A stretch of 64,000 nt of DNA from Podarcis erhardii (Eukaryota). Shown piece after piece: positions 9,001 to 12,000 of this stretch. The position numbers are program-made. The stretch lies in NCBI GenBank assembly GCA_964252035.1, contig OZ176201.1; one strand, given 5' to 3'. Position 1 is the first letter of the stretch. Each line of letters begins with the position of its first letter.

Positions 9001-12000
9001 TTTTGCCACCGGGGGCAAAGTCCCCCATGAGCCGTCGGGTCAGCCCTTCCCCGCCACCCGTTTTGACCTTTTAACTGTATGGTTGCAGCTACGGAAACAG
9101 CCGGGTCACCAGGTGGACCCTTGGGGTTGAGGGCCACCGAATGGATGGTAAGGAACCACGGGGTCCTGGGTGGGTGAACGGACTGCTGTCTGCTTTCTCC
9201 CTCGCTCCCTGTGTTTATTAGACAGCTGCTTCTTTCAAGGAATGTATGGTGAGAAAAGGGCTCTAAAGACAAAGACACACATGGATCTATCTGTGACGCT
9301 GAATGTGGCACAGTAAATTTTTGAGCAGATGGGTTTGTACTCACATGCAGCCCCTACAACAAATCAGCTCTGACTGTCATAGACATATGTAGAAACTATT
9401 TAAATGGTTAGCCTTGGGGGAGTTATTCCTGATGAATTATGTTTCTACTAACTCCAGAATTTATCCCCTTTTATTTCCAGTTAAAGAACCTTGAGCGTTG
9501 AACAAAAGATGCTCAGAGCTGCTGTTTTCTCTCTAAGGGTACCATTTTTGCTTTATGAATTTGCAGCACGTCGTAGTTTGAGCTGAGCTTTCTTGCTGCT
9601 ATTACCATCCTAATTGCTGTTTTAAATGCTTATATGAAGGAAGAATCTGCCAGTTTATTCTAAGTAGTAGATTCAAAGCCTCAAAAATCAAAGGTGTTGG
9701 CATCATAAAGAGTAAGGAGGGTCAATTAGGAGAAATCTAAGGATCAACATGCTCAAGAATGTCTCCTTGCTGACAAGCCATCTAAAGCACATTCTGATAA
9801 CTTTCACCCAGTCCATTGGGCATGATTGTATTTAAATAAAATGTCTAGCCCTCAAGGTTGTGATGAAGTATCAGAAATAGCTGTTTAGATTCTGCTAAAC
9901 ACTAAGGATATGGATGAGTCTTCTGCTGTCATGAAGCAGATTTTCTTGTTTCCTGGAATTCTAACATTTTATCAGTATTCCAAACTCATGGGAATGGCAA
10001 GGGTGAAGAAGGCTCATCATTTGTGGGGTAGGAGGAAAAGGTTAAACTTCCCTCTATATTTTTTTTTAACTGACTGGCTTCCTAATGGTGCATTTAAGTG
10101 TTACATCTAATTTGGCTTTCAGTGACAAATGGCAGGTGAAAACATTTTCCCCTGGAAACCTATGCCTGCTCACTTTGACCACTGGTCTTCTCTAGAGGCC
10201 TTTCTTTCTCCCCCTATTAATATCTGTTGTTACACCTTCTGACCTGGTCACTACAGTCTCAGTTATAGGGTGAGGGGCAGCCTATTGGTGAATAAACTGC
10301 ACCATGCTTTTTCTCAGAAACACTGTCCTGTCACTTATTAGGACCATGTTCACAGATGTCATGGCTGAGCCGAGATGTCATGAGACTTCCTGTTTCAGCC
10401 CCCAATAAAAAATCATTGTGATGTAGTGTTACTGTATTGAACTTTGACTGGGCAGATCCTGGGTTCTAATCCCCACTCAGCTATGAAACCCACTGGGTGC
10501 CCTTGGATCAGTGACTCTTGGCCTAATCTGCTCACAACTTATGTTAGTATAATTGGAGGAAGGGGGATAATAGAATTGTGTATGGTGCCCTGAGCTCCTT
10601 GGAAGAAGAGCGAGATATAAATGTAATAAGAAATAAAAAAATAAATATTTCACATCCTCAAGAGTATCACAACCAAAATGAAATTTGCATAAATATGTCC
10701 CATGGTTGATTCCAATTGCAGGCATTGGTTTACTAGTCATAGGATATTTCTTAGAAGGGTTGAGGGGGTGAGGTTATAGAACCAGATTACCTGTACTTGG
10801 CCTAGAAATTAAGGCCACATGCACACCATACATCCCAACACATATTTAAAGCGCATGACTTTCCCGAAAGAATCATGGGAACTCTGTTTCTCCCCCCCCC
10901 CCAGTACCTTCAACTACATATTCCAGGATTCCTTGGAGGAAGTTATGTGCTTTAACTGTGTGTTGGTTGTTCTTCAAGGGTATGGCATGGATCTGCCCTA
11001 AATCTGCTAGTCTGTATCCCATCCTTTTGCTGACTTGTTTTCTATACTAGAGAGATTACAATGGTGTCTGTTCCTGTATAGCCACTGAAAAAGACAGGAG
11101 AATGCAAGGCAGTGTATTGATAATATCTGGCTGGCCTGTTCTTGCCTATGGCCAAGGCTCTTAGGATGTTTAAGATCCCTCTGAGATAACATACAAGTTA
11201 CGCACCAAAGCCAACACTTGCCCCTCAAGAGACTTGTTAGCCAAATGATGATGCTTTTTCGTTGTTGTTTTGGAAACCTTGTGAGGAGGGAGGCCCCTTG
11301 TGTTGGAGAATATATTGGTTTCCGTCTCCAGTTGCTAGCAGTGCAGGAGCGAGATTAAATTCTAATTTCATATCTAAATTAATGCTGAAAAGACCCAGAG
11401 TGATAAAGTGGTGAAACAAAACCAGTAAAACATTAAATGAGGAACATTGAGGTGGCAATGTTCAGATGCACCAGATCAGTACAAATAAGAATCCCACGCA
11501 GACTGCTTCCCAACAGTCCTGCAAAAAGATGTTTTCCTTGCATTTCTAAAATGTAACCGTGAAAATCATTGCCACACTTCTTCTGGGAACTCATTCCAAA
11601 CCTGCTGGAAAGGTCCTACCCCTTCCAATTGAAGTTTAACTTCTGGAAGATGGGGATTTTTATCTGGGCCCAACCAGAAGTTCCTAATGGGAGGCTAGTG
11701 TATGTGTGTCAGGAACACAGGAAGCTACCTTCCATCAAAGCAGACAATTGGTCAATCTAATTTAGGGATGGAGTCCCTCTGGCCCTCTAGATGTTGGACT
11801 CCATCTTCCATCAGTCCCAGCTGGCATGACCAATGACCAGGGATGATGAGAGTTGTAGCCCATCAACATGGATGGCCACAGGTTCCCATCTCTAGTCTAT
11901 ACTGACTGGGAGCACCTTTCCAGGATTTCAGACAGGTCTTTCTCAACCTACTTGGAGATACTAGAGATTGAGCCTGGAGCCTTCTGCATGTAAAGCAGGG

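What the first reader, a model, noticed from the sequence alone, without database searches (positions are those of the whole stretch)
9079..9153. Candidate short non-myristoylated PKA Calpha isoform (MDVKEFL...) with an overlapping uORF
Seen: ATG GAT G|GTAAGG in a CpG-enriched patch splices in frame to exon 2, giving 338 aa. An out-of-frame ATG at 9079 opens 23 codons that would stop exactly on the first codon (TGA) of exon 2. Established: mammalian sperm Calpha2 uses an intron-1 exon ending ...Asp-Val, short N-terminal variants are reported in other vertebrates, Gly2 myristoylation and Ser10 phosphorylation need exon 1, and Met-Asp is a NatB substrate. Inference: this is the squamate short isoform, possibly testis- or brain-restricted and translationally damped by the uORF.
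Basis: partly seen in the sequence, partly recalled or inferred. Interest (0 to 1): 0.65.

Follow-up and report, generated by a model that had tools for sequence, protein, structure and literature searches.

The report
Lizard PKA short-isoform first exon
This is very probably a lizard's copy of an already described short alternative first exon of the protein kinase A catalytic-subunit gene, which gives a kinase without its fatty-acid anchor site; it is ordinary, and the upstream reading frame beside it is unremarkable.

Summary
ATG GAT G|GTAAGG lies at 9141-9153. It joins exon 2 of PRKACA (23178) in frame, and exon arithmetic gives 338 codons. An out-of-frame ATG at 9079 opens 23 codons that end on the TGA starting exon 2.

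Sequence alone does not single the site out. Nine short ATG-plus-donor candidates of equal donor quality lie in the 23 kb upstream of exon 2. The uORF arrangement occurs at 22-28% of positions.

Outside evidence does single it out:
- A public Podarcis muralis protein (A0A670K8E7), 100% identical to the window's exons 2-3, starts MDVKEFL.
- A RefSeq model of the leatherback turtle starts the same way.
- Soberg et al. [quoted passage not shown]

This is therefore a member of a known kind, already present in a database for a sister species. The start site, tissue pattern, protein and uORF effect remain untested.

The parts
8900..9199 (.). Small CpG-enriched, GC-rich patch around and just upstream of the exon. 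It is a possible weak promoter, not a CpG island by usual criteria.
   Evidence: GC 0.60, 10-11 CpG per 200 bp, o/e 0.55-0.60, against a window median of 2 CpG per 200 bp; no second copy in the window; the open frames over it (8714-9130 +, 8928-9353 -) have no Pfam match.
9027..9074 (+). Upstream ATG in the main frame: 15 codons closed by TAA at 9072-9074. This stop means the Met-Asp ATG is the only in-frame AUG start the exon can offer.
   Evidence: list of ATGs 8600-9143 with frames and stops; sequence.
9079..9147 (+). Out-of-frame upstream ORF of 23 codons (context aactgtATGg). It overlaps the main ATG and, after splicing, ends on TGA 23178-23180. It is present in the mRNA only if transcription starts upstream of 9079.
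   Evidence: The chance rate of such a frame is 22-28% of positions.
9141..9147 (+). Coding end of the alternative 5' exon (exon 1-S type): ATG GAT G gives Met-Asp plus the first base of the split Val codon. Start context is caccgaATGg (-3 C, +4 G).
   Evidence: the only ATGGAYGGT in 1-23177. It matches the N-terminus of P0004 (Podarcis muralis) and of P0026 (Dermochelys coriacea).
9148..9153 (+). 5' splice donor ATG|GTAAGG, phase 1.
   Evidence: consensus score 5 of 7, within the range 4-7 of the 8 real donors of exons 2-9.
9148..23177 (+). Intron of 14,030 nt between the short exon and exon 2.
   Evidence: Coordinates. No match to exon 1-1 or to Anolis exon 1-L anywhere in 1-23177.
23178..23239 (+). 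PRKACA exon 2 (62 nt): TG completes Val, then KEFLAKAKEEFLKKWENPLQ. Its first three bases read TGA in the uORF frame.
   Evidence: tblastn of P0004.
25108..35237 (+). PRKACA exons 3-10: 25108-25236, 25335-25433, 27525-27607, 28914-29040, 29568-29663, 29810-29932, 32848-33012, 35112-35234, plus stop TAG 35235-35237.
   Evidence: every exon has AG and GT borders; acceptor pyrimidine content 15-18 of 20; tblastn of P0004.

Best explanation
Positions 9141-9147 are the coding end of an alternative 5' exon of PRKACA, of the published 'exon 1-S' class, in a lacertid lizard close to Podarcis muralis. Transcripts carrying it splice from 9147 across a 14,030-nt intron to exon 2 at 23178. Translation from the only available in-frame AUG gives Met-Asp-Val-Lys-Glu-Phe-Leu... 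and a 338-residue catalytic subunit with the whole kinase core (exons 2-10). It lacks the 14 residues of exon 1-1, and so lacks the Gly1 myristoylation, Asn2 deamidation and Ser10 phosphorylation sites. By analogy with mammalian Calpha2, the myristate pocket would be left open and catalysis unchanged. The initiator Met would be kept and acetylated by NatB. Shown here: the sequence, frame, donor quality and exon arithmetic, and the same N-terminus on public models of a sister species and of a turtle. Inferred: that the junction is used in this species, that the exon has its own promoter in the CpG-enriched patch, that the protein is made, and all functional consequences. The uORF from 9079 and the small ORF from 9027 would lower translation only if the transcript starts upstream of them.
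For: The sequence is as described. The donor score of 5 of 7 lies within the 4-7 range of the gene's 8 real donors. The main frame is closed upstream by TAA at 9072, so Met-Asp is the only AUG start. ATGGAYGGT occurs once in 1-23177, with 0.2 expected. P0004 (UniProt A0A670K8E7, Podarcis muralis, 395 aa) begins MDVKEFL and is 100% identical to the window's exons 2 and 3. Its tail reads through intron 9, which a protein-homology model would not produce, so I infer it comes from transcript data. P0026 (RefSeq, Dermochelys coriacea, 'alpha-like isoform X2', 126 aa, reading into intron 4) also begins MDVKEFL. Of the 209 stored proteins scanned, 21 had a short N-terminus before KEFL, and 2 of those 21 start MDV. 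Soberg et al. [quoted passage not shown] Synteny fits PRKACA: SAMD1 lies downstream at 43759-45120. The CpG-enriched patch sits directly on the exon, with no repeat copy in the window. The 9 candidate acceptors upstream of the ATG have 12-14 of 20 pyrimidines, against 15-18 for the 9 real acceptors, which mildly favours a first exon over an internal one.
Against: No transcript, junction read or start-site datum for this species could be consulted. Both supporting models retain an intron (intron 9 in P0004, intron 4 in P0026), so they may come from rare or incompletely processed RNAs. From sequence alone, 9 of the 23 equal-or-better donor candidates are equally short. One of them (MAN-V at 12063, same donor ATG|GTAAGG) sits in a repeat, which shows how easily such motifs arise. 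The start context has C at -3. Three upstream ATGs (8874, 9027, 9079) may precede it. Lacertid-to-lacertid conservation of 12 nt is expected even without selection. Other squamate models show other N-termini: Gekko MEWIFLRD-V, Sphaerodactylus MTVFL-V, Vipera a longer one. The turtle match could be coincidence among the 21 short N-termini seen.
Confidence: 0.7

Rival explanations
1. The stretch ending at 9147 is an internal (cassette) exon, not a first exon. It would be spliced in between exon 1-1 or 1-L and exon 2, for example from the acceptor ttgcag|C at 9088/9089, giving 59 nt. A 59-nt insert puts the phase-1 frame of exon 1-1 into the uORF frame, which stops on the TGA at the start of exon 2. 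Inclusion would therefore be unproductive (a poison exon, with NMD). The 'MDV...' protein would then be only the longest ORF picked by an annotation pipeline.
For:: the candidate acceptor at 9089 has a TTAAC branch-like motif (the branch consensus is my recollection) and 13 of 20 pyrimidines, and 59 mod 3 = 2. Eight further AG sites with 12-14 of 20 pyrimidines lie in 8746-9044; that frame ends on TGA. The protein record P0004 says nothing about the 5' UTR structure. PRKACB is reported to use short cassette exons a, b and c.
Against: All 9 candidate acceptors are weaker than all 9 real acceptors of the gene (12-14 against 15-18 of 20). Soberg et al. describe the PRKACA 1-S exons as alternative 5' exons. 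The CpG-enriched patch on the exon suits a promoter.
Confidence: 0.15
2. The site is a chance ATG next to a chance donor. The junction is used, if at all, at noise level, and no protein of consequence comes from it. The database models merely record such noise, and the turtle match is coincidence.
For:: 9 equally short candidates with an equal donor score lie in 23 kb; the uORF-type arrangement is found at 22-28% of positions. Both supporting models retain introns. The start has a weak -3 base and upstream ATGs.
Against: A second annotation pipeline gives the same Met-Asp start in a turtle. The class is documented from transcriptomes across vertebrates.
Confidence: 0.12

Closest known systems
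PRKACA exon 1-S / CalphaShort of non-mammalian vertebrates (Soberg, Moen, Skalhegg, Laerdahl 2017, PLoS One 12:e0181091; PMC5526564)
   Same: It is an alternative short 5' coding exon upstream of exon 2, with at most 8 codons counting the start and the split codon (here 3). The intron is phase 1 with the split Val, there is no N-terminal Gly, and the myristate pocket is predicted to be unoccupied.
   Different: The paper's own reptile sequences are in Fig 2C and the supplements, which I could not see, so I cannot say whether its Anolis or alligator 1-S peptide is Met-Asp. The position relative to exons 1-1 and 1-L cannot be shown, because neither lies in the window.
UniProt A0A670K8E7_PODMU (Podarcis muralis, unreviewed automatic model; P0004)
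   Same: The N-terminus MDVKEFLAKAKEEFLKKWENPLQ... is the same, and it is 100% identical to the window's exons 2 and 3.
   Different: That model reads through intron 9 and ends in intron-derived residues, giving 395 aa. The window has Ile where it has Val in exon 5 and a stop early in intron 9, so the window comes from a related lizard or another assembly, not the same sequence.
Mammalian sperm-specific Calpha2 / Cs (PRKACA exon 1-2; structures 4AE6/4AE9)
   Same: The alternative first exon ends ...Asp|Val in phase 1. The protein is not myristoylated and has the same core. Asp2 of P0004 aligns with residue 7 of the 343-residue Calpha2 chain.
   Different: The human peptide is (M)ASNSSD(V), five residues longer, and its Met is thought to be removed. 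Testis-specific expression is a mammalian trait not seen for 1-S elsewhere, and orthology was judged impossible to determine.
Short PRKACB variants (Cbeta3, Cbeta4; exons 1-3, 1-4, a, b, c)
   Same: These are short alternative 5' exons of 2-8 residues upstream of the paralogous exon 2.
   Different: They belong to a different gene, and some are cassette exons combined with others.

Membership tests
PRKACA (PKA catalytic subunit alpha) gene | Exons 2-10 encode the Calpha core, with SAMD1 as a neighbour | tested here: met
   Searches give the exon map; the best named hits are squamate 'catalytic subunit alpha'. PDB Calpha chains match P0004 at E about 1e-199. SAMD1 WH and SHD domains at 43759-45120. 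That SAMD1 neighbours PRKACA in human is my recollection.
Exon 1-S / CalphaShort (Soberg 2017) | At most 8 codons, counting the start codon and the codon split with exon 2 | tested here: met
   3 codons: ATG, GAT, G|TG.
Exon 1-S / CalphaShort (Soberg 2017) | Phase-1 junction to exon 2 that keeps the reading frame | tested here: met
   1014 nt gives 338 codons.
Exon 1-S / CalphaShort (Soberg 2017) | No N-terminal Gly, so no myristoylation site | tested here: met
   Met-Asp start. Met-Asp is a NatB substrate with retained Met.
Exon 1-S / CalphaShort (Soberg 2017) | Lies between exon 1-1 (or 1-L) and exon 2 | tested here: inconclusive
   It lies 14,030 nt upstream of exon 2. No MGN peptide occurs in any frame, and tblastn found no match to squamate exon 1-1 or Anolis exon 1-L in 1-23177, so these exons are presumably beyond the window's start.
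Exon 1-S / CalphaShort (Soberg 2017) | Seen as the 5' exon of real transcripts | not testable with these tools
   The only evidence is indirect: public models P0004 and P0026 start MDV. No read or transcript data are on hand.
Mammalian Calpha2 (exon 1-2) orthologue | Testis- or sperm-specific expression | not testable with these tools
   Soberg et al. found no such pattern outside mammals.
Mammalian Calpha2 (exon 1-2) orthologue | Alignable exon and flanks (orthology) | not tested
   No mammalian or other reptile DNA was compared. The authors call it impossible to determine. The shared ...Asp|Val end is too short to count.
Regulatory overlapping uORF | The upstream AUG lies inside the mature 5' UTR | not testable with these tools
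   The transcription start is unknown.
Regulatory overlapping uORF | Out of frame, overlapping the main AUG and ending downstream of it | tested here: met
   but 22-28% of positions show the same arrangement by chance.

The most novel reading that the evidence does not exclude
The Met-Asp|Val mini-exon could be an old amniote feature rather than a lacertid accident: the same exon in lizards and turtles (both show MDVKEFL models) and the remnant of the ...Asp|Val end of mammalian exon 1-2. That would settle the orthology of exon 1-S, which Soberg et al. called impossible to determine. Its overlapping uORF, which ends on the TGA that opens exon 2, would be a conserved brake that couples use of this promoter to low, leaky translation.
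Probability: 0.15. Interest if true: 0.4.

Novelty: already known. Interest (0 to 1): 0.18.

Why it matters
If real, the exon gives a lizard PKA catalytic subunit that cannot be myristoylated, deamidated at Asn2 or phosphorylated at Ser10. That form could differ from the common one in membrane association and partner binding through the open hydrophobic pocket. This adds one more species to a class described in 2017 and already modelled in a sister species, so the gain is small. The useful lesson is methodological.

Tried and rejected
- **Canonical exon 1-1 and the long exon 1-L:** I looked for both in the window. No MGN peptide occurs in any frame, and tblastn found no match to squamate N-termini or to the Anolis CalphaL N-terminus in 1-23177. 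An ORF at 4395 with a Trp near a weak donor looked briefly like 1-L but got no tblastn support, so I dropped it.
- **Repeat origin of the exon:** self-BLAST of 8000-10000 and of 8850-9200 found no second copy. A rival candidate, MAN-V at 12063, does lie in a repeat with a second copy at 28734-28833.
- **Other genes or RNAs over the patch:** there is no Pfam match for the open frames over it and no Rfam family in the whole window.
- **More MDV-starting proteins:** two more searches with residues 1-40 of the public protein P0004 gave no further representative starting MDV. The 'near' search listed 120 of 130 hits and the 'shorter' search gave 14 hits. I read four new named ones and left two unnamed ones unread.
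- **Cluster members:** listing the members of the P0004 cluster (2 members) and of the 300-member Anolis cluster P0008, where RefSeq lacertid isoforms may be hidden, could not be done.
- **Supplements of PMC5526564:** these were closed. Fig 2C and Tables S1/S2 may already list the lizard peptide.
- **Literature:** the search listed 15 papers. Only PMC5526564 combined PRKACA with a lizard or exon 1-S term, and none paired PRKACA with Podarcis.
- **Not available or not done:** The window's exons were not joined for any search or fold. No structure or complex prediction was run, because the core is a solved kinase.

Full report
**What is in the sequence**

The window carries exons 2-10 of a PKA catalytic subunit alpha gene on the + strand. 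Kinase motifs and the C-terminal ...[24 protein letters not shown] were found. Downstream, 43759-45120 encodes the WH and SHD domains of SAMD1 under a strong CpG island. As I recall, that is the PRKACA neighbourhood in human.

Exon 2 begins TG AAG GAG... at 23178 behind a good acceptor. The junction therefore gives Met-Asp-Val-Lys-Glu-Phe-Leu. The coding lengths sum to 1014 nt, or 338 codons. This figure is arithmetic on coordinates.

The ATG at 9079 opens 23 codons that end at 9147. After splicing, the next codon is TGA, the first three bases of exon 2.

**Is it more than chance?**

From the sequence alone, no.
- In the 23,177 nt upstream of exon 2, 437 GT sites have an in-frame upstream ATG in phase 1.
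- Of these, 23 reach the same simple donor score (at least 5 of 7) as 9148.
- Of those 23, 9 are as short as the published definition of a short exon requires: MSQ, MD, MY, MA, MAN, MGAG, MLHPK, MAALAAK and MAYGR.
- One of them, MAN-V at 12063, has the identical donor ATG|GTAAGG. It lies in a palindromic repeat that has a second copy in intron 5.

The uORF is no rarer. An ATG-opened frame that ends in phase 0, at least 9 nt back, exists at 22-28% of positions in 400-23176. Any such frame must stop 'exactly on the first codon of exon 2', because that exon begins TGA.

The 'CpG-enriched patch' is real but modest. In 8900-9199, GC is 0.60, there are 10-11 CpG per 200 bp, and o/e is 0.55-0.60, against a window median of 2 CpG per 200 bp.

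**What lifts the site above chance**

I searched the window's exon 3 alone against the protein collection. The only hit 100% identical was P0004, UniProt A0A670K8E7 of Podarcis muralis. Its sequence starts MDVKEFLAKAKEEFLKKWENPLQ. It matches the window's exons 2 and 3 without a difference, and exons 4-9 with one Val/Ile change.

After exon 9 it reads on into intron 9. A model built from protein homology would not do that, so I infer it came from transcript data. The window has a stop early in that intron and indels further on. The window is therefore a related lacertid or another assembly, not the same sequence.

ATGGAYGGT occurs once in 1-23177, at 9141, with 0.2 expected. This is the only place here that can give Met-Asp before a GT donor.

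A second pipeline gives the same start in a distant reptile. P0026 is a RefSeq model of Dermochelys coriacea ('alpha-like isoform X2', 126 aa, reading into intron 4), and it begins MDVKEFLAKAKEDFL.

Of the 209 stored proteins scanned, 21 had a short N-terminus before KEFL, and 2 of those 21 start MDV. Two further searches with residues 1-40 of the public protein P0004 added none.

**What it is**

Soberg et al. 2017 (PMC5526564; abstract, passages and sections 5, 7, 8 and 12 read) searched vertebrate transcriptomes for 5' exons of PRKACA. Besides exon 1-1 (MGNAAAAKKGSEQES-V) they found two kinds.
- A long exon 1-L, in all major groups except birds and mammals.
- Short exons '1-S' of at most 8 codons, in all major groups except the coelacanth. 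These lie between exon 1-1 or 1-L and exon 2 and encode 'CalphaShort' proteins.

In mammals, 1-S is exon 1-2 of the sperm form Calpha2, which in human is (M)ASNSSD(V). Outside mammals no testis-specific pattern was found, and orthology to the mammalian exon was judged impossible to determine.

The site at 9141 meets the features that can be tested here: 3 codons, a phase-1 split Val and no N-terminal Gly. Its place relative to exons 1-1 and 1-L cannot be shown, because neither is in the window. They must lie more than 23 kb upstream of exon 2, which fits the published order.

**How it most likely works**

The main frame is closed upstream by TAA at 9072-9074, so Met-Asp is the only AUG start this exon offers. 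The product keeps the whole core. Asp2 of P0004 aligns to residue 14/15 of the canonical PDB chains and to residue 7 of the 343-residue Calpha2 chain 4AE6/4AE9.

The product lacks Gly1 (myristate), Asn2 (deamidation) and Ser10 (phosphorylation), whose roles are summarised. Met-Asp N-termini keep the Met and are acetylated almost fully by NatB (PMC11735805, passage). All of this is inference from the sequence and from the mammalian form.

The title of PMC3163529 states that Calpha2 is kinetically indistinguishable from Calpha1. I saw that paper only in the search listing.

**The uORF**

The start context of the main ATG is caccgaATGg, and that of the 9079 ATG is aactgtATGg. Both have a pyrimidine at -3 and G at +4. 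Further upstream ATGs lie at 9027 and 8874, both in the main frame and both closed at 9072. The last codon of the exon in the uORF frame is itself ATG, followed by TGA after splicing.

If transcription starts upstream of 9079, these ATGs would lower translation of the main ORF by capturing scanning ribosomes. If it starts within 9080-9140, they are absent. Nothing here tells which.

**Rivals**

1. Cassette exon.
- An acceptor-like site, ttgcag|C at 9088/9089, would make a 59-nt internal exon.
- Spliced after exon 1-1, it would shift the frame into the uORF frame and stop on TGA. That would be an unproductive variant, and an annotation pipeline would still report its longest ORF as MDV...
- All 9 acceptor candidates upstream have 12-14 of 20 pyrimidines, against 15-18 for the gene's 9 real acceptors, so I rate this lower.

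2. Splicing noise.
- Both supporting models retain an intron.
- The other squamate models show other N-termini: Gekko MEWIFLRD-V, and Sphaerodactylus, Vipera and one Anolis model. The last three look like read-through from the intron upstream of exon 2.

**Verdict**

However, the kind was published in 2017, and the very N-terminus is already in UniProt for a sister species. Testis restriction is contradicted for non-mammals by the one study that looked. Brain restriction and uORF damping are untested.

What stayed unchecked:
- junction reads and start sites;
- members of the protein clusters;
- the supplements and Fig 2C of PMC5526564, which may already list the lizard peptide.

A literature search for PRKACA with lizard terms listed 15 papers. 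Only PMC5526564 was relevant.

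Noticed in passing
window 43500-45500 (CpG island); 43759-45120 +: There is a strong CpG island (GC 0.73-0.80, o/e 0.94-1.08). An open frame under it carries the SAMD1 winged-helix and small helical domains, so this is the start of SAMD1, about 8.5 kb downstream of the PRKACA stop.
   Followed up: partly
window 58303-58851 - and 60862-63735 -: On the minus strand, one open frame ends in a BTBD8_C-type domain (E 2.9e-20). A 957-codon open frame further on has no Pfam match. 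Together they suggest a third gene at the window's end, which I did not identify.
   Followed up: no
window 11991-12092 and 28734-28833 (opposite strand): A palindromic, MITE-like repeat is present in two copies (71% identity). The first copy holds a look-alike short exon ATG GCC AAT G|GTAAGG (MAN-V) with the same donor as the finding, and an MGAG-V look-alike lies 20 nt further on. It is a warning against picking such exons from sequence alone.
   Followed up: partly
window 23147-23177 +: An in-frame ATG inside the pyrimidine tract just upstream of exon 2 would give MLFLCLCLLT-V... by read-through. An Anolis model (G1KM04, P0006) starts MLFLCLCFLA-V the same way, so some 'short N-termini' in databases are intron read-through and not separate exons.
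   Followed up: partly
window 1-23177: Neither canonical exon 1-1 (MGN...) nor the long exon 1-L known from Anolis (P0008) is in the window. The intron or introns upstream of exon 2 therefore exceed 23 kb in this lizard.
   Followed up: yes
window 33013-33285 +: The P. muralis model P0004 reads through intron 9 for about 95 residues. The window has a stop right after ...EEGGGLW and frame shifts further on, so that tail is not a conserved coding extension.
   Followed up: partly
window 19001-20000: A second CpG-richer stretch (18 CpG per 500 bp, o/e 0.54-0.71) lies inside the same intron. It has no Pfam match in its open frames and no repeat copy in the window, and it remains unexplained.
   Followed up: partly
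window 9011-9026 +: GGGGGCAAAGTCCCCC, about 115 nt upstream of the Met-Asp ATG, resembles from memory the CAAAGTCCA-type HNF4 nuclear-receptor motif. This is a recalled likeness only and was not tested.
   Followed up: no
window 9145-9147 + with 23178-23180: The last three exon bases are themselves ATG in the uORF frame, so the spliced mRNA would read AUG-UGA, a one-codon ORF, across the junction.
   Followed up: no
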